From: a virus
DNA: 35,139 bases
Direction: 5' to 3' (one strand)
Virus genome (UHGV): UHGV-0098759
In this document: in pieces, positions 1-35,139 of the stretch
Position numbering within the stretch: position 1 is the first letter of the stretch
Layout of the letters: the number at the start of each line of letters is the position of its first letter
Position numbers and translations under genes: made by a program
Notes under the pieces: generated by a model
Told to the model about the DNA's origin: nothing
Databases searched by the model: none
Seen by the model: only the letters and a program-made list of their open reading frames with translations

Positions 1-97
1 CGATTTTTGTCGCATGGTGCAAGTTAAATAGGCGAGTAATCTCCTGTTTAGGTTTCCCTAATATCATGTACCCATGATAACACGAGGGGGTACAACA

Positions 98-370
98 ATG
101 AACATCGGTAAAGCAATCATCAACTACGCAGCACGTCGCAACATGGACATTACCTTGATTGACGATGAGACCGTGGCGTTCTGGGAAGCGGATAACGATT
201 GTGAATGGATGTTCTCCTACATGATTGGTAATGATGGTTTCCTCCACTTTAAAGGGAATGTGTATCTGCCGCAGGATATTAAAGAAGAATTACCAGCGTG
301 CATCGATACAGACAAGAAGCTGAAAGAAGTAATCAACTTTATCGCTAAAGAGTTTATCAGCAAGAAGTAA
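98..370 (+). CDS. hypothetical small early protein (track ORF 74..370; ATG at 98 preferred)
   Basis: ATG at 98 is preceded by GAGGGGG at a 7-nt spacing; ORF is open to TAA at 368-370; no recognisable domain. Confidence 0.45.
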   Translation: MNIGKAIINYAARRNMDITLIDDETVAFWEADNDCEWMFSYMIGNDGFLHFKGNVYLPQDIKEELPACIDTDKKLKEVINFIAKEFISKK

Positions 371-807
371 TGTCTAATTTGGCGGGTACTATTCCCGCCG
401 ATTTAAACGGAATACAGACAATGTTCAATATCATGATTCGTAAATTTGGTGAGATGACTTTCGAGAAAGCTGGTGTTGCTCGTACCGAAGAAGAAGCAAT
501 GGCTTTAGTTCTGGTAGCACTGAGATCATCAACTGATATTATCGACGCTGAATATGTAGCCGCAGAAGGTGAGATTAACGAGATTAAAGCGGTGGCTAAG
601 GAATTAGGTGTTAAAGGTTTCCGTAAGCTGAGACTATCCCGCGAGTCATATGTAATTGGTAAGCAAGGACAATACCTAGATGAGAATACCGTGATTGTTC
701 TACTGAATAAGATCACCCGCTATGGTTTCCAGATTGAGCAATATAAAACGTGTTTTGAATTATACGAAAAAGGTTTGCTGGATACTCTGACCATCGTTCG
801 CGCTTAA
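370..807 (+). CDS. hypothetical protein (alternative start at ATG 421, downstream of the 381-399 stem-loop)
   Basis: ORF in the track; ATG at 370 overlaps the upstream stop (TAATG); a conserved stem-loop lies inside the first 17 codons, so a start at 421 is also plausible. Confidence 0.45.
   Translation: MSNLAGTIPADLNGIQTMFNIMIRKFGEMTFEKAGVARTEEEAMALVLVALRSSTDIIDAEYVAAEGEINEIKAVAKELGVKGFRKLRLSRESYVIGKQGQYLDENTVIVLLNKITRYGFQIEQYKTCFELYEKGLLDTLTIVRA
381..399 (+). promoter_or_regulatory. conserved intergenic stem-loop, copy 1 (GGCGGG-TACTATT-CCCGCC) within the motif TCTAATTTGG...
   Basis: Perfect 6-bp stem; second copy at 822-840 has compensatory base changes; followed by TTTAAACGGA and an ATG. 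Confidence 0.5.
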
Positions 808-1118: not shown

Positions 1119-1538
1119 ATGAAAAAGATTATCGCTGGTATCGTTCTTGCTCTGGGTTTGGTTGGTGCTGCAAATGCTAATACCTATACCTATTATGTGT
1201 GCAATTCCTACTTCGAATATAAAGGAGATGATACACGCTACCTGAGTGATGGCGACCGTTATTATCATGCGCCGTCTGGCAAATACCGTGGTTTTATCGG
1301 TGTAAAGGTTCGAGTGAATGATGATAATAGTCAATTTGCTTTCAACGATCCGGTATTTGATAAAACAATCAAAAGCCCGAAACTGAAAGAAGATAAGAAC
1401 GAGAAAGAAGAATATTATGGTTCCGAAGATGGTAAGTCTTACATCAAATATCTGCATTCTGTAGATGGCGCTCCTATATTTGATGTTAAAAAAGGTGATA
1501 CATCTTATACCCTGATTAGCTGCCGTGAAATTCTTTAA
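1119..1538 (+). CDS. secreted or periplasmic protein with N-terminal signal peptide
   Basis: RBS AGAGGAAA before ATG 1119; N-terminus MKKIIAGIVLALGLVGAANA is a classic Sec signal with an AxA cleavage site; no domain recognised. Confidence 0.6.
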   Translation: MKKIIAGIVLALGLVGAANANTYTYYVCNSYFEYKGDDTRYLSDGDRYYHAPSGKYRGFIGVKVRVNDDNSQFAFNDPVFDKTIKSPKLKEDKNEKEEYYGSEDGKSYIKYLHSVDGAPIFDVKKGDTSYTLISCREIL

Positions 1539-1552
1539 TCTTTAATCACCTA

Positions 1553-1592
1553 GCCCCTATCGTTATAATACGCGGTAGGGGCGTTTTTGTTT
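1553..1592 (+). terminator. hairpin plus T-run downstream of the 1119..1538 gene
   Basis: Stem GCCCCTA/TAGGGGC with a large loop containing TTATAAT, followed by GTTTTTGTTT; could alternatively be a recombinase-proximal site. Confidence 0.35.
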
Positions 1593-1601
1593 GGAAATGG
1601 T

Positions 1602-3281
1602 ATGAAAACTAAACTGTATTCGTATATTCGCTTCTCGTCTATGCGTCAGAATGATGGTTCGAGTTATGAACGACAAATCAGGATGGCTAGAGAGATTGCG
1701 GTAAAGTATGACCTTGAACTGGTAAATGATTATCAGGATCTGGGTGTATCTGCGTTTAAGGGTGCTAACTCCAAAACAGGGGCGCTATCTCGTTTCCTTG
1801 ATGCAATAGGTAGATCCGTTCCTGTTGGTAGCTGGCTATTCATCGAAAACTTGGACCGTTTATCCCGTGCCGATATTGTCAGTGCGCAGGAGTTATTCCT
1901 TTCAATCATCCGTAGGGGGATAACCATTGTTACTGGCATGGATAACAAGATCTACTCGCTGGATACTGTTACCGCTAACCCGATGGACCTGATGTTCTCC
2001 ATCCTTTTATTCATCCGTGGTAATGAGGAAAGCCAGACTAAGCGCAATCGTACTAACTCAAGCGCACTGATTAAGATTAAAGCTCATCAAGAAAATCCAC
2101 AAAATCCGGCTGTTGCAATCGAGGAAATTGGAAAGAATATGTGGTGGACTGATACCACATCTGGTTATGTGCTTCCTCATCCGGTCTTCTTCCCTATTGT
2201 TCAGGAAGTTGTGGAATTACGCAGGAATGGACGGTCAACCGCCGAGATACTGGATCACCTTAACGCGACATACACACCACCACCAGCCGCAAGTCACAAG
2301 AGGCATTCAAACTGGTCACGGGCAATGATTGAAAGGTTGTTCCATACCCGCGCTTTGATTGGTATCAAGGAAATCTCTGTAGATGGCGTTAAGTATGAGT
2401 TAAAGGATTATTATCCTCGTGTGCTAGATGACGCTGAGTTTTATCACCTTAAGAAAAGCATTGGTGTTAGAGCATGTAACTTTGGAGACAAAGAAGAAGT
2501 TAAACCTATTCCCTTGCTTAGTGGTGTTGGTCTATTGAAATGTGAACATTGCGGTTCCGCTATGGTTAAGGTGAAAGGAACAAACAGACGGCCTAACCAA
2601 TATCGTTATTCATGCGATGCAATGCGCTCTAGTCGTATTGAATGTGTGCATACAAACTGGAGTTTTCGCGGCGACCAATTAGAGAAAGCTGTATTGCAAT
2701 TGCTGGCTGATAAAATCTGGATTGCTGAAGATAAGGCTAATCCGGTTCCGGCTTTGAAAGTACAGATTGATGAAATATCACGCAAGATTGATAACCTGAT
2801 TACCCTTTCTGCTATGACAGGAGCAACGAAGGAGCTAGCCGATCAGATTACTACCCTCAATAGCGAGCGTGAAACACTCTACAATCAAATTAAGATGGCA
2901 GAAGAGGAAATGTATTCTGTTGACTCTCAAGGCTGGGAGAAGCTCGCAGAATTTGATTTAGAAGATGTTTACAACGAGGATCGCATTAAGGTCCGGTTTA
3001 AGATTAAGCAAGCTCTAAAACGGATCGGGTGTAGCAGGATTGACAAGTACAAAAACTTGTTTGTATTGGAATACATCGATGGCAAGACCCAGAGAGTTGT
3101 AATAGAAAATTCAAGAGGACCGAGGAAAGGCCGGATCTTCATTGATTTGAAGACTATCAATGATAGGCAGATTCTGGAGAGTAACGGGCTTGTTCTGCAT
3201 CCATGTTTAGACATGCTGACAGATAAGAACTGGAAACCAGAAGAAGAAATACCAGGTCCATTACAGGAATTTGGAATTTAA
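1602..3281 (+). CDS. large serine recombinase (integrase-type)
   Basis: N-terminal YIRFSSMRQ matches the serine-recombinase catalytic motif; C-terminal Cys-rich zinc-ribbon (CEHCGS...YRYSC...IECVH) and coiled-coil region; track ORF starts at TTG 1587, first in-frame ATG is 1602. Confidence 0.8.
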   Translation: MKTKLYSYIRFSSMRQNDGSSYERQIRMAREIAVKYDLELVNDYQDLGVSAFKGANSKTGALSRFLDAIGRSVPVGSWLFIENLDRLSRADIVSAQELFLSIIRRGITIVTGMDNKIYSLDTVTANPMDLMFSILLFIRGNEESQTKRNRTNSSALIKIKAHQENPQNPAVAIEEIGKNMWWTDTTSGYVLPHPVFFPIVQEVVELRRNGRSTAEILDHLNATYTPPPAASHKRHSNWSRAMIERLFHTRALIGIKEISVDGVKYELKDYYPRVLDDAEFYHLKKSIGVRACNFGDKEEVKPIPLLSGVGLLKCEHCGSAMVKVKGTNRRPNQYRYSCDAMRSSRIECVHTNWSFRGDQLEKAVLQLLADKIWIAEDKANPVPALKVQIDEISRKIDNLITLSAMTGATKELADQITTLNSERETLYNQIKMAEEEMYSVDSQGWEKLAEFDLEDVYNEDRIKVRFKIKQALKRIGCSRIDKYKNLFVLEYIDGKTQRVVIENSRGPRKGRIFIDLKTINDRQILESNGLVLHPCLDMLTDKNWKPEEEIPGPLQEFGI

Positions 3282-3285
3282 GCTA

Positions 3286-3543
3286 ATGAAGATGATTAAG
3301 ATTTTAGGTTTGATTTTATCTATGAATTCTTGCCTGGCATTGGCAACCGTAGACCAAGAAATGCGTAGACCGCTAACCTATAGAGAAGATGCTTTCATTG
3401 ATGGAGCACATAAAACATTGAAATTGCTATGTCAAAAGACCACCAGTAATTACGGTGAATACAGAAAATGTTATGAGGAATCACTAGACATTTATTCTGA
3501 TGAGGTGAGAAAGATTTTCATAGAACAAGAAAATAAATCATAG
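3286..3543 (+). CDS. small secreted protein with signal peptide
   Basis: ATG at 3286 with GGAA upstream; N-terminus MKMIKILGLILSMNSCLALA is signal-peptide-like; track ORF begins at TTG 3271, overlapping the recombinase stop. Confidence 0.5.
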   Translation: MKMIKILGLILSMNSCLALATVDQEMRRPLTYREDAFIDGAHKTLKLLCQKTTSNYGEYRKCYEESLDIYSDEVRKIFIEQENKS

Positions 3544-3579: not shown

Positions 3580-3607
3580 AAGGGGTAATTCGTACCCCTT
3601 TTTAATT
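3580..3607 (+). terminator. intrinsic terminator (AAGGGGTA-ATTCG-TACCCCTT followed by TTTAATTT)
   Basis: 8-bp perfect stem with T-rich tail, at the end of the plus-strand gene block. Confidence 0.6.
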
Positions 3608-3777
3608 TAATTGCGTTAGAGAGTCTCTAATGGGCTTAAATCAAGCTCTAGGTCTTCCGGTTCTTTCATTACTTCAACCAGAGACGGCTTCGTCAAAAAC
3701 GACTTTATCGTCTGCGGTATATTTGTCTATAATGAAAAAATGGTCAGAAATATAGCTAACGTCGCCAGCATATTCTA

Positions 3778-3812
3778 ACAAAAAAGCGCCCACTAGAGGC
3801 GCTTTAATTTTA
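3778..3812. terminator. bidirectional terminator hairpin (AAGCGCC-CACTAGA-GGCGCTT flanked by A-run and T-run)
   Basis: Perfect 7-bp stem with A6 upstream and T-rich downstream, at the convergence of the plus-strand block and the minus-strand late and lysis genes. Confidence 0.6.
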
Positions 3813-4163
3813 TCCATTCCATCGTGATTTTTTCGATCTGGAATCGATATGCGTAAATGTTTTATATTTTCCTAAGCCGTATTGAGTAGGATATTTCCCA
3901 TCAAGATAAGCATGAACAATATCAGGTGAGACACCCTTGATAACAATGTCAGCCGCGCGGCCTCGAACGTGATAGCTATTGGCTGCCCCGCCTACATTCT
4001 TGTTATGAGTCGGGCAACGGTTGCCACTGTTAATAATAACTGGTTTCCCGAAGTGTTCTCGTACATCCTCAAGAATTACCAGTAATTCAGCATCGATAGT
4101 ATCATAATCACATTTTCCGCATCTACATTTAAATTCCTTGCGAGAAAAATGCTTACTTAACAT
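3810..4163 (-). CDS. endolysin, M15-family zinc peptidase-like
   Basis: Motifs FSRKEFKCRCG, SYHVRGRAADI and a C-terminal His (THID) match the small M15 peptidase fold used by phage endolysins; RBS AAGGGGG. Confidence 0.7.
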   Translation of the reverse strand: MLSKHFSRKEFKCRCGKCDYDTIDAELLVILEDVREHFGKPVIINSGNRCPTHNKNVGGAANSYHVRGRAADIVIKGVSPDIVHAYLDGKYPTQYGLGKYKTFTHIDSRSKKSRWNG

Positions 4164-14466: not shown

Positions 14467-14973
14467 TTAAGAGATTTTCAAAGTCTGCTTAGTGCCAGTT
14501 TTCTTAATATTTGTTAGGAAAGCAGCCGGAGGATTGCTTAACCAATAGTAATGAAAACCACTTTGCATACTGTTATAAGGAACAGTGACAGCAGCACCAC
14601 CCAAATTAACGGTTATATTCCCCGCTCTACCGTTCTGGAGATATACAGCCATAGTAGGAGTACCGCCATTGAATTGACCAACGATAACGCCAACCAGACG
14701 CCCTACGCCCACGTTTTCGGGGTTCTCCATAGATCCTTTGCTTTGCATACCGGAAACAGGATAGTTTGAAGCAGTTACACCCCAGTTATTACCCAATGAA
14801 GTAGACCACGATGCAGTAGCTACAACCGTATCCATACCACGACCAGCCATTGCCGACATATTACGCGGAGCCGGAACTTTTAAAGCTGTTAATGCTTCTT
14901 TCATCCATCGCTTACCCGTCACCGATACAGCAGATGACCCGATCCAGCCAGGAACTTTAACGACATTTGCCAT
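14467..14973 (-). CDS. hypothetical Gly/Ser/Ala-rich tail-region protein
   Basis: ORF with GGAG RBS; lies between the tail-tube-like gene and the G chaperone. Confidence 0.45.
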   Translation of the reverse strand: MANVVKVPGWIGSSAVSVTGKRWMKEALTALKVPAPRNMSAMAGRGMDTVVATASWSTSLGNNWGVTASNYPVSGMQSKGSMENPENVGVGRLVGVIVGQFNGGTPTMAVYLQNGRAGNITVNLGGAAVTVPYNSMQSGFHYYWLSNPPAAFLTNIKKTGTKQTLKIS

Positions 14974-14993
14974 TTTGATTACTCCAATAAAAA

Positions 14994-15020
14994 AGCCCCA
15001 CCATTAAGGCAGGGCTTAAA
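14994..15020 (-). terminator. intrinsic terminator after the tail-tube extension (AGCCCUGCC-loop-GGUGGGGCU, then U6)
   Basis: Stem contains G-U wobbles only when read on the minus-strand RNA; homologous in sequence to the terminator at 20926-20955. Confidence 0.55.
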
Positions 15021-15021
15021 A

Positions 15022-15147
15022 TTAATTCTTAGCCTTGCGGCCTCGTTTTGCTGTGGCTTTCGCCGTAACTTCTTCTACTTCTGGAATCACCACCGCTTCA
15101 TGTTCCGGCAGTGGTTCCGGTTCTGGTAAAGGAAGTTCTTCGTTAGT
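15022..15147 (-). CDS. in-frame post-TGA extension of the tail-tube protein (38 codons; ...EVEEVTAKATAKRGRKAKN)
   Basis: TGA at 15148-15150 is followed by 38 sense codons in frame ending at TAA 15022-15024; no ATG inside; homologous to the capsid extension. Confidence 0.5.
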   Translation of the reverse strand, partial: TNEELPLPEPEPLPEHEAVVIPEVEEVTAKATAKRGRKAKN

Positions 15148-15621
15148 TCATCCGGCAGTGAAGATTTGCTGTTTCAGCGGAGCACCATCAACAGCAAAGG
15201 TAAACTCTTTCGTTACCACTTCTTCATCGCCACCGTTCATAGCAACTTTAGAGATGAAGCCGTTGAAAGCTGTGCGAATACCAGTCTGTTTTGCTGCATC
15301 TACATAGTATTCAATCTTAATCTGAATTCGAGTACCGTCTTCGGCAGCTTTAATGAGCTTCTCGTGTACCGCATCACCAGGAATGTAGTTAACGGTCAGA
15401 GTCAGATCAGGAACGTTCAGTTTACCTACCAGCTTACGGTTATACTGAGAAGAGAAGGATTTAACTTCTACAGTGCCGCGCTCGATACCAGTTTCAGGAA
15501 AACCAGCACACTCTTTAATTTCTTCATAGCTTTCATGTGCAAGATTGGTGTTAGTGGTATCGGCGTGATAGAACATACTTACCAGACCACCAGTAAAAAT
15601 ATCTTTAAATTGCTGAGACAT
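15148..15621 (-). CDS. tail tube (major tail) protein-like, paralogue A
   Basis: 157 aa; canonical position upstream of the G/T chaperones; paralogous to the N-terminal 165 aa of the 19357..20190 product (shared DIFTG, LTLT.N, AED.T blocks); RBS AAGGGG; ends in TGA. Confidence 0.55.
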   Translation of the reverse strand: MSQQFKDIFTGGLVSMFYHADTTNTNLAHESYEEIKECAGFPETGIERGTVEVKSFSSQYNRKLVGKLNVPDLTLTVNYIPGDAVHEKLIKAAEDGTRIQIKIEYYVDAAKQTGIRTAFNGFISKVAMNGGDEEVVTKEFTFAVDGAPLKQQIFTAG

Positions 15622-15678
15622 AGAATTACCCCTTAATTAAAATTGTTTATAACGGGGGAACTAGTCCCCCGACTTTTA

Positions 15679-18600
15679 TTATTTAGTTGCTTTCAGTTCG
15701 GCAATTTCTTTCTGTAATGCTTCGATCTGTGTTTTATATTTGGCGTCCATTTCCTGCATAGCTTTAATAATCAAGGCATTAACAGCAGAGTTAGAAATAG
15801 TCTTGATTGCTTCCGGTTGTTCTGGATCTTCTGTGGATTGAATACCTACTGCTTCCGGCAATACTTTTTCCAGATCCTGAGCAATAATACCTACTTCGCG
15901 TTTAATCACCGTGTCATCGGAAAGAGATTTAACTTTATCGTAGGTGTAGACTTTCAGTGAGTTTACTTTCTCTAATGCACCGTCCTGTAATTCTTCCTTG
16001 TTAATCTTCAAACGGGAGTCAGAGCGAATGTAAACATCGTTAAAGCTACCGTTACGACCTGCGCTAAAATCACCCGCAGCGTTAAAGTCAAAGTTGGCGT
16101 CGTGAACGTTTAGGCGAGCTAAAGCATTGGTAATAGTACCACTAGGAACATGCACACCCATTGCCGCAATATGATATTTTCCCCAATGAGTCGCTTTCCA
16201 GATGTTATGAGCGGAATCGGTTGAGTTCGGACAGTCTACGAGGATTCCGGCAGAACGATCACGCCAGCTAGCCCAGCTACCACCAGCAACATTACCACGA
16301 ATCAAACCTTTATCAGACCCGCCGACAGTCCCCGCCTCAAGATGAATCATTTTATCAGCAAGTTTCCAAGTTTGACCTTGTTTCTGACCACGGAAGCGGA
16401 TAACACCAGCATCATCGCAGTACATCAAACCTAATTCTAAACCGTTCGGATCTCTAAACCATAAATGCTTATTACCACTGCGACGAAACTCAATATCAGC
16501 ACCGCCAACCTGTATATTGCTCGCAGTTTTTAATGTACCAGCAACAGAGAACAGGATAGGACCAGTTCCACCGTTTGTACGTTCGGTATACCAATGATAA
16601 CTAGTAGCATCCTTACATTCAAAAACCTGTTTGCGTTGCTCGTTACCCCATGTATGTAAGGTAAATTGAGACGCAGATCCACGATTAGCATCAAAGGCAA
16701 TCTCACCGGATTCTACACGCACGAAGCCTTTAAAACGTGCTGTGATATTGCCAGTACCCATAGCGCGTTCAGTGGTAAAGTGTGCACCCTGACTGTCTTC
16801 AATCTGTAGGATGTTATCGCGAGCGTTATTACTATCGCCCCAATGGTTAAACCGGAAGTAATCGCGGGATTGTCCAGCACCAGCATCAAATGTTAAATGT
16901 TGACCTTTGATGTAAGCGTTGCCAGAGAATCGAGCGGCCTTGCTTGCGCGTTCTAGAGTTAATACATCTTCGTTTCCATCACCACCTAATTGAACGTTAC
17001 CGGAAGTAAGATCGTAGATAAAAGGTCGATATGTATTCCAACCACCAAATCTATCATTTTCGGCAGTAGACAACAGATAAACTTTACCACCATCATTTCG
17101 CCAGAATGCACCATACTTACCGTAAATCATACGGAATGCATCAGCGTTAGCGGAATAATATTGACCATTGGTATATACAATTTTTGTTTTTCCTGTAGTC
17201 AAATTTACTTGTCCACTACCTTCCAAATCAAATGAGTTAGCACCAACATCATTACGCCACACAAAACCATCACTAGTACCATCCGCATGACCGATATAAC
17301 CACTACGTTGGTTTTTACCATCACGACGATCCCACCACGCCATATATGCAGCTTGACCAGTCTGTCGATGTAAAGTCATCGCATTACCACTACCGTGCAA
17401 TTCCATTTTACCAGTAATTACATATCCTTTATAATTACCCGGTATTGCACTATTAGAATCAATTCTAATAACTTCTGTAGAATCTGTAGCACCAGTAGCA
17501 AGACGATATACAGCACCCTGAACGGTTTCATGCCAAACCATTTCGTTATAGTTGCTACGGAATTTACGAATATATTTCCGTCCAGTACCTTTATCATTAC
17601 TTAGATGAACAATGTCATAGCTGTTTTGTGTGTTATCATCAAAACTTAACACACCACGTTTATTTTCAGTATTAAAAAGAGTTACGTTGCGACCACCGAT
17701 AACACCAACGGAAGGTTTAATTAACGTGGCTTCCGGCGTATCATAAACCGTCAAACTTACATAAACAGATTTCCCATATTCGACAATAACGTTATCGGTA
17801 TAACGCTGATATTTCACGTAGATATCATAGTTATCACCGGAAGTATTGACAGCAAATACCTCAAAATCTTTGTTTGTATTTCTACGGTATGCAATTACGT
17901 TAAGACCTTTAGGTCTATCGTTACCACTACGCAGAAGAATTTCTACTACGTCAACCTGATCATATGCCGTAACGTTGTAACCATTACCACCATGAATACG
18001 GAAAAACACACTACGCCCGTTTTGTGGAATTGTTGCGGTTGCCAATTTGAAATATGCAGATACGTTTTCGCTAGAATTGGGAACAGACATAACGACGTTT
18101 TTAACAAACATCTTATCAACTTCGGCTTTGGTGTATGCACCAATCTCGCCAGGAGTCGGCTTATCACCTTCGTGATACATCTTATAGCTAAAGTTCTTCT
18201 GTCCTTCTCTATCAAAACCATAGGTTTCAACACGAGATCCACCAGATGCATAACGGAAAGTAAATCCGCGACCGTGCGCTTTACCGGAAGAGTGAGGAAC
18301 GTTAAGAGTTAGATCCATGAGTCCATCTTGACCATTGGTACGGAAAGCACCAAAGTAGTTAAGATCTCGTGATGTCTGGTCTTCCAGATAGTTAGCTGTC
18401 TTGCTTAACAGATACCCACCATGCTTAGTATTGGTATTCTTCTTGATGTAAAGAGCATCATTGCTACCTTCAATACCATCAATTCGTTTGTTAGCGGCTG
18501 CAATTGCGGCATCAGTAGAAGATTTATTCTGGTCTACCTTGTTGTTAATTGCGGTATGGTTGCTATTAACAGTGCCAGTAAGATTGGTAATCTTAGTATC

Positions 18601-19281
18601 CGCGTCTTTCTTATTGTCGGAAACAGTCTTTTCGATCGCTGTCTTGTTAGCTGCAACCGTGCTAGTTAAGCTAGAAATTTTGTTATCTGCATCGGTTTTA
18701 TTTGCAGTAACAGTTTTAGTTAAGTTGCTAACGTTGGTGTTAGTGGTATTAACCTTGTTGTTAATCGCGGTGTTATTGTCAGTGACCGTTTTCGTTAAAG
18801 CTGCATGTTTGCTATCTGCATCAGATTTGTTTGCGGCAACGGTTCTTTCAATTGCGGTCTTATTCGCAGATACGGTCCCCGTAAGGTTATTGATCTTAGT
18901 GTCGGCATCGGTTTTATTTGCCGTAACTGTCTGGGTTAAGTTACTAACAGTGGTGTTGGTAGCATCAATGCGCTTATTGGTCGCTGTATCTTTCGTGGTA
19001 ATAGTCTGATTCAGTTCAGCTTTAGCACTAGCCAGATTATTAGCGGCCTCTTGTTTGTTGGAAGCAATAACACGGTCAGTGCTAGTTTTGTTATTGTCTA
19101 CTTTCGTGTTTAAAGCATTATGACTTTCTGGGGAAACGCTGATTTGAACTACTGCGTTATTTTTGTCTTTGGTGTAAATTACATGGTCTGCCATCTGAAT
19201 AGCGATTTCACCGACCTGTAATTGTTCCGGCGTTGGTTTTTTACCAGCCGTTTGTGTGCGTTTAAATTGGATTGATTGCAT
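15679..19281 (-). CDS. long tail fibre with heptad-like shaft repeats and C-terminal intramolecular-chaperone-like domain
   Basis: 1200 aa; N-terminal third has repeats of type TVTANKTDADTKINNLTGTV; C-terminus (...SDSRLKINKEEL...IEALQKEIAELKATK) resembles self-cleaving chaperone domains of phage fibres; KPTP.EIGA motif at N-terminus and internally. Confidence 0.75.
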   Translation of the reverse strand: MQSIQFKRTQTAGKKPTPEQLQVGEIAIQMADHVIYTKDKNNAVVQISVSPESHNALNTKVDNNKTSTDRVIASNKQEAANNLASAKAELNQTITTKDTATNKRIDATNTTVSNLTQTVTANKTDADTKINNLTGTVSANKTAIERTVAANKSDADSKHAALTKTVTDNNTAINNKVNTTNTNVSNLTKTVTANKTDADNKISSLTSTVAANKTAIEKTVSDNKKDADTKITNLTGTVNSNHTAINNKVDQNKSSTDAAIAAANKRIDGIEGSNDALYIKKNTNTKHGGYLLSKTANYLEDQTSRDLNYFGAFRTNGQDGLMDLTLNVPHSSGKAHGRGFTFRYASGGSRVETYGFDREGQKNFSYKMYHEGDKPTPGEIGAYTKAEVDKMFVKNVVMSVPNSSENVSAYFKLATATIPQNGRSVFFRIHGGNGYNVTAYDQVDVVEILLRSGNDRPKGLNVIAYRRNTNKDFEVFAVNTSGDNYDIYVKYQRYTDNVIVEYGKSVYVSLTVYDTPEATLIKPSVGVIGGRNVTLFNTENKRGVLSFDDNTQNSYDIVHLSNDKGTGRKYIRKFRSNYNEMVWHETVQGAVYRLATGATDSTEVIRIDSNSAIPGNYKGYVITGKMELHGSGNAMTLHRQTGQAAYMAWWDRRDGKNQRSGYIGHADGTSDGFVWRNDVGANSFDLEGSGQVNLTTGKTKIVYTNGQYYSANADAFRMIYGKYGAFWRNDGGKVYLLSTAENDRFGGWNTYRPFIYDLTSGNVQLGGDGNEDVLTLERASKAARFSGNAYIKGQHLTFDAGAGQSRDYFRFNHWGDSNNARDNILQIEDSQGAHFTTERAMGTGNITARFKGFVRVESGEIAFDANRGSASQFTLHTWGNEQRKQVFECKDATSYHWYTERTNGGTGPILFSVAGTLKTASNIQVGGADIEFRRSGNKHLWFRDPNGLELGLMYCDDAGVIRFRGQKQGQTWKLADKMIHLEAGTVGGSDKGLIRGNVAGGSWASWRDRSAGILVDCPNSTDSAHNIWKATHWGKYHIAAMGVHVPSGTITNALARLNVHDANFDFNAAGDFSAGRNGSFNDVYIRSDSRLKINKEELQDGALEKVNSLKVYTYDKVKSLSDDTVIKREVGIIAQDLEKVLPEAVGIQSTEDPEQPEAIKTISNSAVNALIIKAMQEMDAKYKTQIEALQKEIAELKATK

Positions 19282-19356: not shown

Positions 19357-20190
19357 TTAATACTCACCGAAGTCGATTCTATCAGTCTTAGCCACTGCGC
19401 CAATTTCGCTAGGTGTCGGTTTCTCATTGGTGGAATATACCTTGATCCATTCAGAGCGACCGTTTTCCTGAATATTTCGGACACGTAAACGTGGTGCACC
19501 GGAAGTATTACAGGTTAATTGCCATGCGCCATGCTCATTAGCTTGAAGGTGAATTAATGATGTATCAGCACCATAAGGGTTAGTGCTAGCCGTTCCTTTG
19601 TAGGTTACGAAGCGGTTTCCTGTCAGAGATTCACTATCAATAGGTCCGGTGAATGGGCTAACGCCTGAGCCTACGCCATAATCCCCTTGTCGCAGAATTT
19701 TTCCCTCGGTCGCTATACCCCTTGCTAGAATCCCGCCATCTGGTTCAAGTTTAAATTCCAGTGTTACAGCTTTGTTATCACTACCACGGGTTTTATGTGA
19801 TGTGACGTAAGCATCGAATATACAAAAGTACCCTGTGTTAGCAGCACTATAGCCAGAGTTCACAACATAGAACATACGGAAGCGTAAAGGTGTTTTATCC
19901 TCTACCGCTTTCATCAACATTGCTTGATGTTCATCGTCAAGAACACGGTTTAATGTGAGTGTTGTCGGTTCCAGTCTACGATAACCAGCAAGTTTCCCCG
20001 TAGCGTCCTGATCGTACTCTTCCAGAGTTTCTATCTCTGTGGATTCGGTTAGCGTAGGGAATGCTGCGATGTTCTCCATAGAACTAAAGCTAGGATCGAA
20101 AAAGTCGACCTGATTGTCTATCTGGTTAGAGATCGACACTTCAACATGTGATCCAGTGAAAATATCTAAGTTATCTTGTGTAATATTCAT
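19357..20190 (-). CDS. tail-tube-like protein, paralogue B, with C-terminal fibre-repeat domain
   Basis: N-terminal ~165 aa paralogous to the 15148..15621 product; C-terminus ends with KPTPSEIGAVAKTD, the same motif found in the adjacent fibre; RBS AAGGGG. Confidence 0.5.
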   Translation of the reverse strand: MNITQDNLDIFTGSHVEVSISNQIDNQVDFFDPSFSSMENIAAFPTLTESTEIETLEEYDQDATGKLAGYRRLEPTTLTLNRVLDDEHQAMLMKAVEDKTPLRFRMFYVVNSGYSAANTGYFCIFDAYVTSHKTRGSDNKAVTLEFKLEPDGGILARGIATEGKILRQGDYGVGSGVSPFTGPIDSESLTGNRFVTYKGTASTNPYGADTSLIHLQANEHGAWQLTCNTSGAPRLRVRNIQENGRSEWIKVYSTNEKPTPSEIGAVAKTDRIDFGEY

Positions 20191-25223: not shown

Positions 25224-27137
25224 TTAAAAGTTATTTACCCACCCACCACGACGCACAGGACGCGCCATAGGACGACGATTAGGTTTGTGATGAGTGATTG
25301 GCTTAGTTTCTTCGATTTGCTCGTTAGAATGTGATTTAGGAGCTTCTACGGTTGCTTCTGGTTCACGATTCAGCTTTTCTTTCATTGCAATGAGCTTATC
25401 CCATGACATTTTTGAAAGAACATAGCGAGAAGCCGCATAGCTATAAACCAGACAGTCGAGCGCCTCGTTTCGTGTCGCACCTGGATTTTTTACCCAACGT
25501 GTTCCAGTAACAGTACGCTTGATGGATTCACTCAAAAGCTGATCGAGATAATCATCAGGAACGGTTTCTGATATCTCTAAACCAATATGAGGGTTTTCTT
25601 TCAAGTTGCGTGTTAATAGCTCACGAATAGCCGTTTTACCCACGTTAACGCCCAACATAAGCAATTCATGACCACCCGTGGTAGTTGGTTTCACCGGAAT
25701 GATTGGAGCAGTACCAGATGAACTACCTTTGATTGCGTGTAAGTTCTTCCACTTACCACCGCAAATACGGTATCCGGCTTGAGTGAATCGACCGTTCGAT
25801 GTATCAAGGAAGCTGGCGAGCATAGGAACACGATCACCCGATACAGTAGTAAATTTGGTTTTATGGAAGTTGATTAATCTGTCCCATACAGGAGATTCAT
25901 ATCGTTCACAGTTATGGTCGTAAAAGCTGCGATGATCCAGAATATAAATCTTATCCTTTGCCACGCCCATGATCGTAGTTTCTGCGCGATCTAATTGCTG
26001 GTCAGTACCCGCACACAAGAAAATCACGTCATCAGGGATATTCTCGATAGAAACATCTGTTTTGAGTTGTTCCAGTTCATTTGCTTCTACTGCCGTGTCC
26101 TGATCGTCGTATACCTTACCTAACACTGTGTTATAAAATGATTGTAAATCAAAGGATTGCCACGCATGACTAAAATCAACCACACAAGCGCGGATACTAC
26201 TGAAAGGTGAATACAGACGGCTGATCCAGAATCCTGCTACTTCACTTTCACGGGTTGCTCTCCACTCGCCTTGCGCTACTGCCCTGATTCGTTCCCCTTC
26301 TGTCCATGATTGCTTACAGTGGGGGCAAATATAACGAGCGGTATCAGGATCGGGTAAGTTCTTACCATCGATGTTACGCCATTCAAATTGAACGTTTTCC
26401 CACTCGATCACCTGGTGTTCCCCGCAATGAGGACACGGAACAAAAAACATACGCATATCACTTGATAACCATTGCTGGTTAATGATTCCCAGCTTATTGG
26501 TTGGGGTACTAGAAACAATCAATCGAGCTTCATCACCAAAGGTAGTTAAACGGTTTGCAGTTAGTGCCACCGGACAACCTTCTTCGGTGATTGTTGCTGC
26601 GTCGCATTCGTCTACAATCCCTAACTTGGCAGTACGCCCACGCAAACTTGAAGGACTGGTCAAAGAAACCATGTAAAGGAAATGGTTTGTTTTTAGCTGA
26701 ATCTGGTTATTGTTGTTTACCGCATTACGATCATTCTTATCTGTTACCACTTCCTGTAATGCCGGACATGCTTCAATAGAAGGACGGATCTTAGTATTCA
26801 AGTACATAGCCACTTCTTTAGCGGTACTTTGCCCGATAATGATATTGCACGGATCGTTTGCCATCTGGTTAAACATGATCCCTGACATGATGGTCGTCTT
26901 TCCGATCTGCGCACTCGTACAAAAAACGTACTTCTTTTTCTTCTCAAGGAAAGGAGCATCAATCATGCCTTTCTGAAATGACAGTAATTTAACTTTATCC
27001 CCAGCACGAGGACCATCGACTAGCGTTAGATTCGCTTCGCACCATTCAGAAGGAAGGAGTTTAGGCGGTGGCGTAATATATTTGGCTGCATTTCTGAGAA
27101 TCTTTTTTAATTTGGCCTTATTAGAAATCAGTTTCAT
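25224..27137 (-). CDS. terminase large subunit, lambda A-like
   Basis: 637 aa; CPHCGEHQ and [14 protein letters not shown] motifs match the corresponding lambda large-terminase segments as recalled; RBS GAGGG. Confidence 0.9.
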
Positions 27138-28195: not shown

Positions 28196-29038
28196 TTACA
28201 GTCCGAAGTGTTCCAGTGATCCAGCATTCTGACGAATCAGCAAAGCAGTATTATTGACGATTGCTCGTGAGTTATTCGGCTGTGGCAATTTCAAAGTTGC
28301 GGCCTTTTCTTCTTCAAGCAATCCGAGTTTTACGAGATGCGGGATAGCATCAGCAGTGAACTCGATCTGACCGTGTGCCGACATACGAGCGAACATATAG
28401 CCAGGAGGAAGCAGATCATAGCCTTTAGGCTTACCAGAATCATCCAGACGACGCTCAAGAACACCAGCAGCACATAAACCTTTCAGAATCATTTGTACCT
28501 TCGTAGAGCCTCGTTTTTCGCCTAATAAGCGGCTAAGACTGTGTGTGTCGATAGCTTTACGAACATGCAATTCAACCAGACGTTTGTTTTCGCGGGTTTT
28601 CTCTAATGCCAGTTCGATCCAATCGGTTTCTTCAAAGTGTTCATATGGATTAACCGGAACATTAGCTTTACCTTCTTTCATCAAACGCCATTCTTTAGCA
28701 ATTTTGAAGCGAAGCGGTGCATCGTATCCCATAACCAGAGTATTACAGAGATCTTCATCCAGTTCATACATCGGTTTATTACGATTCAGAGAATCTTTAT
28801 AAGTCGTTTCTTTATAAAAACCGATGGGCGCAAAATTGCGCTCATCTCCTCCGACCAGTTTGCTACCCTTTTCAAGTGAATCAACCATATTACGAAAATC
28901 ACGCATAACATCTTTATGATTCTTTCCGGTTAATTCCGCGATCTGCAAAGTAGACATGGTCAGCGGTTTGGTGTTATCAACAACCAGAGACACGGAAGCA
29001 GGTTTAATAGCAGTATTCATAGTAGTAACAGTATTCAT
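28196..29038 (-). CDS. Rha-family phage regulatory (antirepressor-like) protein
   Basis: N-terminal segment LTMSTLQIAELTGKNHKDVMRDFRNMV matches the conserved Rha N-terminal domain pattern as recalled; RBS AAGGGGG. Confidence 0.65.
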   Translation of the reverse strand: MNTVTTMNTAIKPASVSLVVDNTKPLTMSTLQIAELTGKNHKDVMRDFRNMVDSLEKGSKLVGGDERNFAPIGFYKETTYKDSLNRNKPMYELDEDLCNTLVMGYDAPLRFKIAKEWRLMKEGKANVPVNPYEHFEETDWIELALEKTRENKRLVELHVRKAIDTHSLSRLLGEKRGSTKVQMILKGLCAAGVLERRLDDSGKPKGYDLLPPGYMFARMSAHGQIEFTADAIPHLVKLGLLEEEKAATLKLPQPNNSRAIVNNTALLIRQNAGSLEHFGL

Positions 29039-29864: not shown

Positions 29865-29988
29865 AGTGGAAATCCTCTAAAAGAAAGTGAATCAATCTAA
29901 TATTATTTATAAAGAGAAAATTCTTGTTATTATGAAAAGAGTGATCTGGTAGAGTCCAAAACTGGTCTGTACTTGAAAGGTGATTGGA

Positions 29989-30399
29989 TTCAGTCGGGCT
30001 AAAGCCCTCCTTCATAGATTTTGATTAAATCATCACCAAAACGAAGAAGTATCTTTAGAATATAAGAATCTTTCTTTTGAAGAAATAATAATCAGGAAGA
30101 AATTTAGCAACCGAAGGTTGCAATCCCGAAGGGATACCAATACCTTTCTAGAAAGTGATTGTTACTCACTTCGTTCGTTTACTAGAATCAGTTAGTAACT
30201 AGTTTAAAATCCCTTTCAAGAAAATCCTTTCAGAAGTGATTCTCGATGCCACGCAGTGGCGTCGCAGACGTTTGAGAGTGAGCGAAGCGAGCGAGCAAAC
30301 TAGTTAATTCCTTCTAAGACCATCTAGTATCATCTAGTTTAAATTAGTGTTACTAGAAGTAATTGGTTAGCGCTTCGCGCAGTCGGGCTACGCCCTCCT
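29989..30399. repeat. pair of 20-bp direct repeats (CAGTCGGGCTA[A]AGCCCTCCT and CAGTCGGGCTACGCCCTCCT) bracketing about 370 bp of ORF-free sequence
   Basis: Read directly at 29989-30009 and 30380-30399; the interval holds two adjacent GAA-loop hairpins (30106-30136) and short internal repeats (ACTAGTTTAAA, TTACTAGAA). Confidence 0.5.
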
Positions 30400-30540
30400 A
30401 ATATCTTTTTGGTTATTTGTTGTTTTTGGTTTTACACATGAGCGTAGCGAATGTGTTATATAATATCTATGCACGCCCAATTCCCCGTTTTTGCCCTCAC
30501 TAACTTAATGTTTTATAAAGAGTTTTTCTTACCAATCCTT

Positions 30541-30716
30541 TTCGGGGGCAAATTTCAGGGGCAAAAATTAGATTTTCAGGGGCAATTATTGGCATTTCAG
30601 GGGCAAAAATGAGGGGCAAAATCACTGTTTCCCAGAATTTCAGGGGCAAAAATAGTGGGTTTCAGGGGCAAAAATGGGATGTGAAATCTAGGGGATTTTG
30701 GTTCAGGGGCAATTTT
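30541..30716 (+). repeat. iteron array: about 8 direct copies of TTCAGGGGCAA(A/T)(A/T)AT at roughly 21-bp spacing
   Basis: Copies start at about 30541, 30554, 30575, 30596, 30612 (partial), 30639, 30661 and 30702; an inverted partial copy lies near 30485-30498. Confidence 0.8.
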
Positions 30717-30753
30717 CATAGTGTAGGGCTAGTGTAGGTTTGAAAGTCCTTTG

Positions 30754-30782
30754 TTGACACTGTGTAGGAACAGTGGTATAAT
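30754..30782 (+). promoter_or_regulatory. perfect-consensus sigma70 promoter with extended -10 (TTGACA-N17-TGgTATAAT)
   Basis: TTGACA at 30754-30759, 17-nt spacer, TATAAT at 30777-30782 preceded by TGG; directly downstream of the iterons and upstream of an AT-rich tract. Confidence 0.65.
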
Positions 30783-31233
30783 TGACAATTCGAGATAAAT
30801 ATGTTATAATATTTGTATTGAAAGTAAAAATTTACCGATTTTCCTTCCTATTGTTATTATCCTGTTAAATTGTTATATGTCTGTTAAGGTTTGGATCTGA
30901 GAGAAAATCCTGTAACAAATCTTTACAATTCATAGCTCAATTAATACTCACCGCTTTAGCAAAAAGTGCTATGCATTTTTCTAAATTGATTAAATATACA
31001 TCAATTTGGTTAAATCGCGTTCTTCGCTTTAGCAATTCGTGCTGTGGTTTAACACATTTAACACGCCTGATAACATCTGAATAACATTTTAACATATCTC
31101 TGTTATAAATACATATATAAGAGATAAATGTGAGGGGTTGAAAAATTAAAAAACAATCCCCGTATAAATAACAATGAGCGGTTAACGCTCTTTTTTTTAA
31201 GAAATAATTAATCCAGATTTAGGAGGATTCAAG

Positions 31234-34093: not shown

Positions 34094-34888
34094 ATGAAAA
34101 ACATTATCGCTGCTATCGTTCTTTCTGCTACTGCATTCGGTGCTAATGCTGCATCCTTCGATTGCACTAAAGCTACTACCAAATCAGAGAAGTTTATTTG
34201 TGCTAATGAGTCAATCTCCGCACTGGACTCTAAACTTCATGAAGTATATGTTAAGGCTGTTAAGATTGATCCGTCGCTTAAACAAGAGCAACGCAACTGG
34301 AATAAAACTGTTCGTGATACAATGATCAATATCGGGCAGATTCAGCCACTGGAGGCTGTATACAACGCTCAAATCCAAAACTTGATGGATGTATTATCTA
34401 AAGAAGAAACCGCGTCAGAAAGCGATTCAGAGACTTCTGCGAAGGTTGAAGAAGAACAACCGAAGGCAGTAGAAACTCTAAAAACCAAAGAGAAACAAGT
34501 TGTTCTGGAAAAGTCCCCAAATAGCAACTTCGTATATATTTGTCCGAAAGTAGTTAAGATAACCACAATTGACGGACTGAGTGTAGAAGATCGTGATATA
34601 GTGAAAGAAAACACAAAAATTGTAATCGATAAAAACAAAGACAAGGCAAAACTTCTAATTTCTGGAACGATGCACCCCCCAGTTGTAGTGGAAATGAATA
34701 TTGACGCTGATGGATTCATGTCAAAAACTACAAAAACTGGTGTAGAGTTATACGCACAACACGGAAAAACATATTCCGGTGATAAGATGGTTGATGATGT
34801 AAGAACACTGGACTATCATCATATTTATGTTGACAACCGTACCGGAAAGGAAATCGAATGGAAATATTCTTGTGTAGAGAAAAAATGA
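34094..34888 (+). CDS. secreted protein with LprI-like (lysozyme-inhibitor-like) N-terminal domain
   Basis: Signal peptide MKNIIAAIVLSATAFGANA, then SFDCTKATTKSEKFICANESISALDSKLHEVY matching the LprI-type pattern as recalled; signal peptide resembles that of the 1119..1538 product. Confidence 0.55.
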   Translation: MKNIIAAIVLSATAFGANAASFDCTKATTKSEKFICANESISALDSKLHEVYVKAVKIDPSLKQEQRNWNKTVRDTMINIGQIQPLEAVYNAQIQNLMDVLSKEETASESDSETSAKVEEEQPKAVETLKTKEKQVVLEKSPNSNFVYICPKVVKITTIDGLSVEDRDIVKENTKIVIDKNKDKAKLLISGTMHPPVVVEMNIDADGFMSKTTKTGVELYAQHGKTYSGDKMVDDVRTLDYHHIYVDNRTGKEIEWKYSCVEKK

Positions 34889-35052: not shown

Positions 35053-35139
35053 TTTTTAGTTATTTTGGGTTGACTACATTCGGGTTGCCAATTCGCCTGG
35101 CTAACTCTTGCTGAGTGATTTCTGACTGTAAAAAAGCAT

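What the first reader, a model, noticed from the sequence alone, without database searches (positions are those of the whole stretch)
1119..3543. Large serine recombinase flanked by two signal-peptide proteins in a lambda-like phage
A 559-aa serine recombinase with zinc-ribbon and coiled-coil regions, the architecture of serine integrases, sits between two small secreted proteins. A third secreted protein with a near-identical signal peptide lies at 34094. The hairpin at 1553-1592 and the region after 3543 are candidate attP locations. Secreted proteins next to an integrase are typical lysogenic-conversion or superinfection-exclusion cargo.
Basis: partly seen in the sequence, partly recalled or inferred. 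Interest (0 to 1): 0.4.

Follow-up and report, generated by a model that had tools for sequence, protein, structure and literature searches.

The report
Serine-integrase prophage inserted in hicB
The window is a 35-kb Escherichia coli prophage already sitting in the chromosome, put there by its large serine integrase, which cut the host antitoxin gene hicB at a two-base TT crossover; it is an uncharacterised but ordinary member of a well-known enzyme family, flanked by swappable genes for exported proteins.

Summary
The described genes are real. They are a 559-aa large serine recombinase (1602-3281), two small ORFs with signal-peptide-like N-termini (1119-1538, 3286-3543), and a third at 34094-34888.

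The window is an integrated E. coli prophage, not a free phage genome, so both attP guesses are wrong. The hairpin at 1553-1592 is a terminator. attP is split between the window ends: attL has TT at 54-55 and attR has TT at 35085-35086, inside host hicB at codon 102 of 138. Phage and host share only the TT there, and the rebuilt attP is a 17/25 imperfect inverted repeat. That is the signature of a serine integrase.

57 of 5426 complete E. coli genomes carry the family, at three sites inside genes: hicB, ycdX and codB. The site follows the recombinase and zinc-ribbon domains (19 discriminating residues, 196-351), not the catalytic domain. No other integrase is present.

The three exported-protein genes sit in variable slots around attP and int, which fits moron cargo. 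Their function is unknown.

Verdict: a new member of a known kind, of moderate interest. The excised form was not observed and no recombination directionality factor (RDF) was identified.

The parts
1..55 (-). Host DNA: 3' fragment of E. coli hicB. It holds the codons after Lys102 and continues 58 nt upstream of the window to the hicB stop, with ydcR beyond.
   Evidence: Matches the K-12 hicB-ydcR region up to w55 with 2 mismatches over the stretch shown. PGAP annotates a hicB pseudogene 'missing N-terminus' here.
30..80 (.). attL: the hicB-derived B arm, the central TT (54-55), then the phage P' arm CCCTAATATCATGTACCCATGATAA.
   Evidence: The alignment of attL to the empty K-12 site breaks after GGTTT at w55. 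The same P' arm abuts ycdX in other lysogens.
98..807 (+). Two conserved phage genes of unknown function (98-370 and 370-807) between attL and the cargo slot.
   Evidence: They match phrog_6147 and phrog_14908. They are present or variant in relatives.
1119..1538 (+). Cargo slot 1: a 139-aa exported small beta-barrel protein. It has two invariant Cys (28 and 135) and the motif DKTIKSPKLK.
   Evidence: Signal-peptide-like N-terminus. AF2 pLDDT 86.8, all-beta. Only 8 clusters exist among 5.8 billion proteins. In relatives the mature part is replaced by a 61-aa alternative behind the same signal peptide; homology breaks at w1177 and resumes at w1553.
1553..1592 (+). Intrinsic-terminator-like hairpin plus T-run ending the cargo slot, 10 nt before the int start codon. 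This is not attP.
   Evidence: 11-bp stem with 7 G-C pairs, then GTTTTTGTTT. It is the conserved left edge of the int block in all relatives.
1602..3281 (+). Large serine recombinase (integrase), 559 aa. Catalytic domain aa 1-125 (R10, S12, D85-R86-x-x-R89); alpha-E helix 127-164; recombinase domain 196-292; zinc ribbon 312-372 (C314, C317, C338, C348); coiled coil 382-438; extra beta-rich C-terminal domain 460-540.
   Evidence: Pfam; phrog_95 integrase, E 3e-58; invariant residues; AF2 model; Foldseek top PDB hits are serine integrases.
3286..3543 (+). Cargo slot 2: an 85-aa lineage-specific ORF with a signal-peptide-like N-terminus, inserted between the int stop codon and its terminator. GC 0.34.
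   Evidence: Absent from most relatives, where w3283 is joined directly to w3541. It forms one protein cluster only. Whether it is a real gene is not established.
3580..3610 (+). Terminator-like hairpin downstream of int and ORF3286.
   Evidence: It is conserved in relatives that lack ORF3286.
3661..3817 (-). Deletion scar of a cargo hot spot. The 47-aa ORF at 3674-3817 is the N-terminal remnant of a 147-aa gene. Relatives carry 1.2-3.7 kb here.
34094..34888 (+). Cargo slot 3, on the other side of attP: a 264-aa exported protein with an N-terminal LprI/DUF1311 domain.
   Evidence: Pfam LprI, residues 24-76, E 1.7e-5. Full-length match to phrog_14799. The segment w33985-35000 is replaced by a different gene in PE15 and OW848980 and is absent in 39EVA.
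35060..35110 (.). attR: the phage P arm ...GGGTTGACTACATTCGGG, the central TT (35085-35086), then the hicB-derived B' arm GCCAATTCGCCTGG.
   Evidence: Identity to K-12 hicB starts at w35085.
35060..35139 (-). 3' end of the hybrid hicB' ORF: HicB residues 1-101 followed by the phage-encoded tail NPNVVNPK and a stop. The HTH recognition helix is lost.
   Evidence: Translation of the junction. PGAP marks hicB 'missing C-terminus' in lysogens.

Best explanation
The window is a ~35,031-bp temperate siphovirus of E. coli in its integrated state. Its only recombinase is a large serine integrase (1602-3281).

Proposed mechanism (inferred from junctions, not observed):
- The integrase recombined a ~50-bp phage attP (TTATTTTGGGTTGACTACATTCGGG-TT-CCCTAATATCATGTACCCATGATAA) with an attB inside the host antitoxin gene hicB (...CTCCTGTTTAGGT-TT-GCCAATTCGCCTGG...).
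- Exchange occurred at the non-palindromic central dinucleotide TT, giving attL at the left end of the window and attR at the right end.
- As in other serine integrases, dimers bound to attP and attB through the recombinase and zinc-ribbon domains would synapse, cut both strands at the TT with Ser12, rotate subunits and religate. This step follows from family knowledge.
- attB choice is set by the recombinase plus zinc-ribbon module. Sister phages whose module differs at about 19 positions insert in ycdX, and a more distant clade inserts in codB.

Consequences and surroundings:
- Insertion truncates HicB after residue 101, removing its DNA-binding helix. That this de-represses hicAB P2 is inferred.
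- In the circular phage, attP and int are surrounded by three exchangeable slots that in this phage hold genes for exported proteins. These are most likely prophage-expressed accessory (moron) genes of unknown role.
For: Integration site:
- The flanks are E. coli ydcR on the left and hicB-hicA-yncJ on the right.
- Alignment with the empty K-12 site puts the two breakpoints so that attL and attR overlap by exactly TT.
- The same two-base overlap is seen at ycdX. At codB the overlap is TTACC, which contains TT.
- The rebuilt attP has 17 of 25 dyad symmetry. The attBs are weaker at 7-11 of 24.

The enzyme:
- It has Resolvase, Recombinase and Zn_ribbon_recom domains. The catalytic Arg/Asp residues (R10, D85, R86, R89) and four Cys are invariant across 47 homologues and Ser12 is present in at least 90% of them.
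- The AF2 model shows a coiled-coil hairpin. Its best PDB matches are serine integrase complexes: 9dxd (E 3e-15), phiC31 9rah, LI 4kis and Bxb1 9iu8.
- No other integrase was found among ORFs of at least 70 aa.

Distribution and site specificity:
- 57 of 5426 complete E. coli genomes carry the family.
- The site partitions by LSR sequence class. Classes at >=96.9% and 90.9-92.0% DNA identity are in hicB. Classes at 92.6-94.2% and 86% are in ycdX. The 78-80% class is in codB.
- Salmonella relatives at 69-75% protein identity are also in ycdX.
- The window's integrase versus PE15 (hicB) is 81/99/99% identical in the NTD, RD-ZD and C-terminal regions. Versus EC24 (ycdX) it is 99/84/96%. All 19 site-discriminating residues lie between 196 and 351.
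- Two genomes hold two integrase copies, and their and hits lie at hicB and at ycdX, as expected for double lysogens.
- Lysogens come from pigs, humans, cattle, chicken and the environment, and include O55:H7 and O6:H16 strains.
Against: - No excised or circular form was seen. Exact searches for the attP junction found nothing in IMG/VR or JGI metagenome contigs, and no phage isolate in INPHARED is similar.
- No recombination directionality factor was identified.
- attP lies 1.55 kb from int, with three ORFs between. That is further than in many serine-integrase phages.
- Recombination activity, the exact cleavage position and unidirectionality are inferred, not measured.
- The empty site used for comparison is K-12, not an isogenic parent.
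- The integration site was checked in about 50 of the 57 genomes.
- The role of the exported proteins is unsupported by any homology.
Confidence: 0.85

Rival explanations
1. The serine recombinase is an accessory enzyme, not the integrase. It could be a resolvase, an invertase, or a YbcK-like protein like those in the nin region of lambdoid phages. Integration would then be carried out by something else.
For: Its closest E. coli phage relatives in INPHARED (30% identity) are YbcK-like proteins of lambdoid phages; from general knowledge, not checked here, such phages integrate with a tyrosine integrase. phrog_125 'DNA invertase' also hits the N-terminal part. attP is 1.55 kb away from the gene.
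Against: No tyrosine integrase or transposase is present anywhere in the 35-kb element. The junctions share only 2 bp, which is not expected for tyrosine integrases. The integration site co-varies with this protein's DNA-binding domains across three sites and two genera. The full serine-integrase architecture, including the coiled coil, is present.
Confidence: 0.04
2. The element is a fixed, no-longer-mobile prophage remnant inherited vertically. The integrase and att sites would be relics of one old event.
For: No free phage, circular junction or virion-derived contig was found. One copy is interrupted by IS1/IS5 (H36) and one is truncated (H158). The regulatory and replication genes are unrecognisable.
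Against: About 1% of complete genomes from unrelated serotypes and hosts carry it, while 5412 genomes have the flank and most are empty. There are three different sites, apparent double lysogens, and mosaic exchange of cargo. The window has a natural hybrid of ycdX-type attP arms with a hicB-type DNA-binding module sitting in hicB; that junction can only arise by site-specific recombination. The structural, lysis and int ORFs are intact.
Confidence: 0.1
3. The signal-peptide ORFs are not lysogenic-conversion cargo. They could be lytic-cycle or structural helpers, or, for ORF3286, not a gene at all.
Against: They lie on the int strand, opposite to the structural and lysis genes. They are gained, lost or swapped among otherwise collinear relatives. 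ORF1119 has its own terminator. The ORF1119 family is conserved at 42-98% identity with invariant Cys and motifs. None is needed by relatives that lack it.
Confidence: 0.3

Closest known systems
Phage large serine integrases with solved structures (Listeria LI/A118-type Int, phiC31 Int, Bxb1 Int)
   Same: Same domain order: catalytic domain, alpha-E helix, recombinase domain, zinc ribbon with coiled coil. The predicted fold matches them (Foldseek E 1e-15 to 7e-6). The attP is about 50 bp and an imperfect inverted repeat. Exchange is at a 2-bp non-palindromic central dinucleotide. The attB lies inside a host gene.
   Different: Only 13-16% sequence identity, and no sequence-level PDB hit beyond the catalytic domain. 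It has an extra ~100-aa beta-rich C-terminal domain (residues 460-540). The host is an enterobacterium. attP is 1.55 kb from int. Activity and RDF are unknown.
Serine recombinases of Burkholderia phages Bcep176 (gp53), JC1 and Bcep22
   Same: These are the best hits among isolated phages, with 28-31% identity over 85% of the length. They are annotated as recombinase or integrase of temperate phages of proteobacteria.
   Different: They are distant. Their att sites were not compared here. The phage backbones are unrelated.
YbcK-type large serine recombinase of E. coli lambdoid prophages (DLP12; phages 4A7, Perceval)
   Same: Same host species and the same three-domain family, with 30% identity.
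   Different: As recalled (not tested here), the YbcK gene sits in the nin region of phages that have a tyrosine integrase of their own. Here the serine recombinase is the only recombinase, and its DNA-binding module tracks the insertion site.
Gene-splitting prophages and elements used as switches ('active lysogeny'): Listeria phi10403S/A118 in comK, B. subtilis SPbeta in spsM, skin in sigK (recalled from general knowledge)
   Same: A serine-integrase element is inserted within a host coding sequence, here hicB, ycdX or codB. Precise excision would restore the gene.
   Different: There is no evidence here of regulated excision or of any benefit. In hicB only the C-terminal DNA-binding helix is removed, and a short phage-encoded tail replaces it.

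Membership tests
Large serine recombinase / serine integrase | N-terminal resolvase-type catalytic domain with the nucleophilic Ser and conserved Arg/Asp residues | tested here: met
   Pfam PF00239 matches residues 6-153, E 2e-14. Y8, R10, Q16, D85, R86 and R89 are invariant, and S12 is present in at least 90% of 47 homologues.
Large serine recombinase / serine integrase | Recombinase domain (PF07508) followed by a zinc-ribbon domain (PF13408) with four Cys | tested here: met
   PF07508 matches 198-286 and PF13408 matches 310-368. C314, C317, C338 and C348 are invariant.
Large serine recombinase / serine integrase | Coiled-coil motif emerging from the zinc-ribbon domain | tested here: met
   The AF2 model shows helices 382-406 and 410-438 forming a hairpin directly after the ribbon. 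This is a prediction only.
Large serine recombinase / serine integrase | Overall fold like solved serine integrases | tested here: met
   Foldseek against PDB: the top 16 hits are serine integrase chains (9dxd, 9y66, 9rah, 4kis, 4bqq, 9iu8), with probability 1.0 and E 3e-15 to 7e-6. TM scores are low (0.2-0.36), as expected for flexible multidomain chains.
Large serine recombinase / serine integrase | Short attP and attB that differ in sequence, are imperfect inverted repeats, and share only a central dinucleotide where exchange occurs | tested here: met
   The attL/attR/attB comparison gives a 2-bp TT overlap at hicB and at ycdX, and TTACC at codB. attP dyad symmetry is 17 of 25.
Large serine recombinase / serine integrase | Catalyses attP x attB on its own; attL x attR needs a phage RDF | not testable with these tools
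   There is no biochemical assay here. No RDF candidate was identified. AF2-multimer screening is not available.
Lambdoid (lambda-like) phage | Lambda-type packaging and tail-tip genes | tested here: met
   GpA_ATPase/GpA_nuclease terminase, Phage_portal_2, and Phage_Tail_Tip plus Ig_GpJ_C.
Lambdoid (lambda-like) phage | Tyrosine Int/Xis and a CI/Cro-type immunity region with N/Q antitermination | tested here: not met
   No such Pfam or PHROG hits were found. Only a Rha/Ant-like regulator is present at 28196-29038. Most early genes have no family hit.
Moron / lysogenic-conversion cargo | Presence/absence or allelic replacement among otherwise collinear relatives | tested here: met
   ORF1119's mature part is swapped behind a shared signal peptide. 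ORF3286 is absent in most relatives. The ORF34094 segment is replaced or absent in others.
Moron / lysogenic-conversion cargo | Own promoter and terminator; expressed from the repressed prophage; confers a host phenotype | tested here: inconclusive
   Terminators are present at 1553-1582 and 3580-3600. No consensus promoter was found. Expression and phenotype are not testable here.
PliC/MliC-type periplasmic lysozyme inhibitor (considered for ORF1119) | Eight-stranded beta-barrel with the conserved SxSGxxY and YxxxTKG loops | tested here: not met

The most novel reading that the evidence does not exclude
Two linked readings go beyond 'another serine integrase'.

(1) This enterobacterial family may be a natural retargeting series. 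About 19 substitutions in the recombinase and zinc-ribbon domains appear to move the target from ycdX to hicB. The window's phage shows that a hicB-type DNA-binding module still works with a ycdX-type attP. attB choice could therefore be reprogrammed with few changes, independently of attP and of the catalytic domain.

(2) Insertion in hicB may not be neutral. It removes the HTH recognition helix and the dimerisation region of the HicB antitoxin while keeping its toxin-neutralising domain and an intact hicA. The prophage would then rewire a toxin-antitoxin module, and precise excision would reverse that.
Probability: 0.25. Interest if true: 0.6.

Novelty: new member of a known kind. Interest (0 to 1): 0.4.

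Why it matters
- Serine integrases are prized genome-engineering tools. Characterised ones from enterobacteria with defined att sites are few.
- This analysis gives base-resolution attP, attB, attL and attR for three natural targets in E. coli and Salmonella.
- A natural domain-swap series maps target choice to residues 166-372. Short synthetic sites can test this directly.
- It also documents a recurrent prophage that disrupts a chromosomal antitoxin gene (hicB), a phosphatase gene (ycdX) or the cytosine permease gene (codB) in about 1% of E. coli genomes.
- For annotation, it corrects the assumption that attP lies beside int in this window.

Tried and rejected
- attP at the 1553-1592 hairpin or after 3543: rejected. 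The hairpin is terminator-like, and both regions are internal and collinear in every lysogen.
- Near-identical isolated phage: none. Megablast of 8 kb against INPHARED gave only a 63-bp hit.
- Relatives in GTDB species-representative genomes: none. The E. coli representative lacks the prophage.
- Excised form: four exact-pattern scans for the attP junction in IMG/VR and JGI metagenomes found nothing.
- Literature: searches for hicB/ycdX/codB with prophage, serine recombinase or integration site returned nothing relevant. Durrant-type LSR catalogues could not be checked for this protein.
- ORF1119 as a lysozyme inhibitor: there is weak fold resemblance only, and the motifs are not conserved. 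BFVD gave weak matches to phage 'lipoproteins' of unknown function. afdb50 was unavailable.
- ORF3286, ORF1119, ORF98 and ORF370 have no Pfam or NCBIfam family.
- The integrase gave no sequence-level PDB hit beyond the catalytic domain.
Full report
**What is in the window.** The mechanical ORF list shows, on the + strand, ORF 1119-1538 (139 aa), a long ORF whose ATG at 1602 gives a 559-aa protein ending at 3281, and ORF 3286-3543 (85 aa). ORF 34094-34888 (264 aa) lies at the far end. The 559-aa protein matches Pfam Resolvase (6-153), Recombinase (198-286) and Zn_ribbon_recom (310-368), all above their gathering scores. It also matches PHROG 95 'integrase' at E 3e-58. The three small proteins have signal-peptide-like N-termini: two basic residues, a hydrophobic core with a 12-residue Kyte-Doolittle mean of 3.0, 1.9 and 2.5, and an A-x-A motif. 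The integrase itself scores -0.1. The first 30 nt of ORF1119 and ORF34094 are 28/30 identical, then they diverge to 41/60.

**The window is an integrated prophage of E. coli.** Exact-protein look-ups place the integrase and ORF34094 on E. coli chromosomes. To the left lie ydcR and the ydcSTUV-patD genes. To the right lie hicB, hicA, yncJ and rlhA. RefSeq annotates a hicB fragment 'missing N-terminus' at the left junction and one 'missing C-terminus' at the right. I aligned both junctions with the uninterrupted hicB-ydcR region of K-12. Host identity runs up to w55 at the left end (...CTGTTTAGGTTT|CCCTAATATC...). It starts again at w35085 at the right end (...CATTCGGG|TTGCCAATTCGCC...). The two host segments overlap by exactly two bases, TT (w54-55 and w35085-86). 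The prophage is about 35,031 bp.

**The rebuilt attP.** The sequence is TTATTTTGGGTTGACTACATTCGGG-TT-CCCTAATATCATGTACCCATGATAA. It is an imperfect inverted repeat: 17 of 25 positions are symmetric. The three attB sites show only 7-11 of 24. A 2-bp non-palindromic crossover between otherwise dissimilar sites of about 50 bp is the hallmark of serine integrases. In the circular phage, attP lies between ORF34094 and ORF98, 1.55 kb upstream of int. The hairpin at 1553-1582 plus its T-run scores as an intrinsic terminator. It is also the point where homology between relatives resumes after the ORF1119 cassette.

**Is this protein the integrase?**
- All ORFs of 70 aa or more were screened by Pfam or PHROGs, directly or through precomputed hits. 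They give a siphovirus with gpA-type terminase, lambda-type portal, a protease-capsid fusion, a tape measure, a J-like tip, a T4 gp37/gp38-like fibre, an M15 endolysin and a Rha-like regulator. There is no tyrosine integrase or transposase.
- The catalytic-domain residues R10, D85, R86 and R89 and the four zinc-ribbon cysteines are invariant across 47 homologues down to 27% identity, and the catalytic Ser12 is present in at least 90% of them.
- An AlphaFold model (pLDDT 80.6) shows the catalytic domain, a long alpha-E helix (127-164), the recombinase domain, the zinc ribbon, a helical hairpin at 382-406/410-438 (the coiled coil) and an extra beta-rich C-terminal domain.
- Its best PDB matches are serine integrase complexes, phiC31, LI and Bxb1 integrases.

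**Three integration sites that track the enzyme.** 57 of 5426 complete E. coli genomes carry the integrase family, always on the chromosome. Inspection of junctions showed three sites, each inside a gene.
- hicB hosts integrase DNA classes at >=96.9% and at 90.9-92.0% identity to the window.
- ycdX hosts classes at 92.6-94.2% and at 86%. There attB is ...CATATTTGGGA-TT-TCCGGGATGG... with a 2-bp overlap.
- codB hosts the 78-80% class. There attB is CCCGGTTGCC-TT-ACCCACCGG with overlap TTACC.
- These assignments rest.
- Salmonella relatives at 69-75% protein identity are also in ycdX, at the same position.
- Two genomes hold two integrase copies, and their hits fall at hicB and at ycdX.

**The integrases are mosaics.** The window's enzyme versus PE15 (also in hicB) is 81% identical in residues 1-165 but 99% in 166-372 and 99% in 373-559. 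Versus EC24 (ycdX) it is 99%, 84% and 96%. All 19 residues that separate hicB-type from ycdX-type enzymes, Salmonella included, lie between 196 and 351. That region is the recombinase and zinc-ribbon domains, which bind att half-sites in solved serine integrases.

**A natural hybrid.** The PE15 type has an attP (TTTACAACATTTAGGT-TT-GCCAAATATAATGCCCCC) that shares 14 bp with the hicB attB. The window carries the ycdX-type attP arms together with the hicB-type DNA-binding module, yet it sits in hicB. Phage arms of one type directly abutting hicB DNA can only be made by site-specific recombination. This natural hybrid argues for recent activity, and it suggests that the protein module rather than attP sets the target.

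**Effect on the host gene.** The crossover falls in codon Lys102 of the 138-codon hicB. The lysogen encodes HicB 1-101 followed by NPNVVNPK. According to a review of HicAB systems, E. coli HicB neutralises HicA with its N-terminal domain. Its C-terminal HTH domain binds the hicO operator at promoter P2 and mediates dimerisation (PMC11594946). hicA is annotated intact in lysogens. I infer, without test, that the truncated antitoxin still covers HicA but no longer represses P2. The ycdX and codB insertions split those genes outright.

**The exported-protein genes.** All three lie in exchangeable slots.
- Upstream of int, relatives carry one of two alleles behind the same signal peptide MKKIIAG(I/V)VLALGLVGAANA. 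One has the 119-aa mature part seen here; the other has an unrelated 61-aa one. Homology breaks at w1177 and resumes at the terminator. Which allele is present does not depend on integrase clade or integration site.
- ORF3286 is missing from most relatives, where w3283 joins w3541. It forms a single protein cluster among 5.8 billion.
- The ORF34094 segment (w33985-35000) is replaced by a non-exported 101-aa gene in PE15 and OW848980, and is absent in 39EVA.
- Their GC content (0.34-0.38) is below the prophage mean of 0.41.
- ORF34094 has an LprI/DUF1311 domain.
- ORF1119 belongs to a tiny E. coli/Salmonella family of 8 clusters with two invariant cysteines and a DKTIKSPKLK motif. It models confidently as a small beta-barrel (pLDDT 86.8).
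- The moron reading is reasonable. The function remains unknown.

**Limits.**
- No free phage or attP junction was found in INPHARED, IMG/VR or JGI metagenomes.
- No RDF was identified.
- Activity, cleavage position and directionality are inferred.
- Searches of the held literature found nothing on this element. Large computational catalogues of serine integrases may already list it.

**Verdict.** This is a genuine, probably active, previously uncharacterised serine-integrase prophage of E. coli, and a new member of a known kind. The added value is the base-level att sites and the natural domain-swap map of target choice.

Noticed in passing
window 30541-30714 (within the ORF-poor stretch 29865-31233): There are at least seven copies of TTCAGGGGCAAAA at about 21-22 bp spacing, plus inverted copies at 30483-30496. 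The array looks like iterons and may be the replication origin or an operator array of a phage with no recognisable replication genes.
   Followed up: partly
window 3661-3817; L043 8468-9948, L046 6754-10308, L054 7763-11540, L059 4354-6880: The gap between int and the endolysin is a cargo hot spot. Relatives carry 1.2-3.7 kb there, with 332-391-aa proteins (some annotated GIY-YIG nuclease), a UvsW-like DEAD/DEAH helicase and a UvsY-like gene. The window keeps only a 47-aa remnant ORF of a 147-aa gene.
   Followed up: partly
window 33181-33735 (-): An HTH protein matches small-terminase PHROG 57 (E 6e-11). It lies 6 kb from the large terminase gene (25224-27137) and about 1.3 kb from attP. It could be the cos-binding subunit or an excision cofactor; this is untested.
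   Followed up: no
L047/L048/L050 (E. coli 39EVA, 06-00048); L043, L046, L053, L059-L061: Sister prophages split codB and ycdX. The codB insertion also separates codA from the codBA promoter, so lysogens may lose cytosine uptake and deamination, which could affect 5-fluorocytosine sensitivity.
   Followed up: partly
E. coli UTME-9 (NZ_CP157110.1) and BS74R-D (NZ_CP063332.1): Each genome holds two copies of the integrase gene. Its and hits lie at hicB and at ycdX, which suggests a double lysogen. The second copy's flanks were not inspected.
   Followed up: partly
window 14467-19281 and 15148-15621 / 19357-20190 (-): A T4 gp37-like 1200-aa long-tail-fibre gene and a gp38-like adhesin gene sit inside a siphovirus tail module. 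They are bracketed by two different major-tail-protein-like genes.
   Followed up: no
window 31529-32470 (+) and 31532-32467 (-): A 313-aa acidic, coiled-coil-rich ORF has an almost full-length antisense ORF of 311 aa. RefSeq calls the + strand one. Neither has any family hit.
   Followed up: no
window 1119-1178 vs 34094-34123: The first 10 codons of two otherwise unrelated exported-protein genes on either side of attP are 28/30 nt identical. In relatives the same signal-peptide sequence forms the left boundary of cassette exchange. This suggests recombination within signal-peptide coding sequence as a way of swapping cargo.
   Followed up: partly
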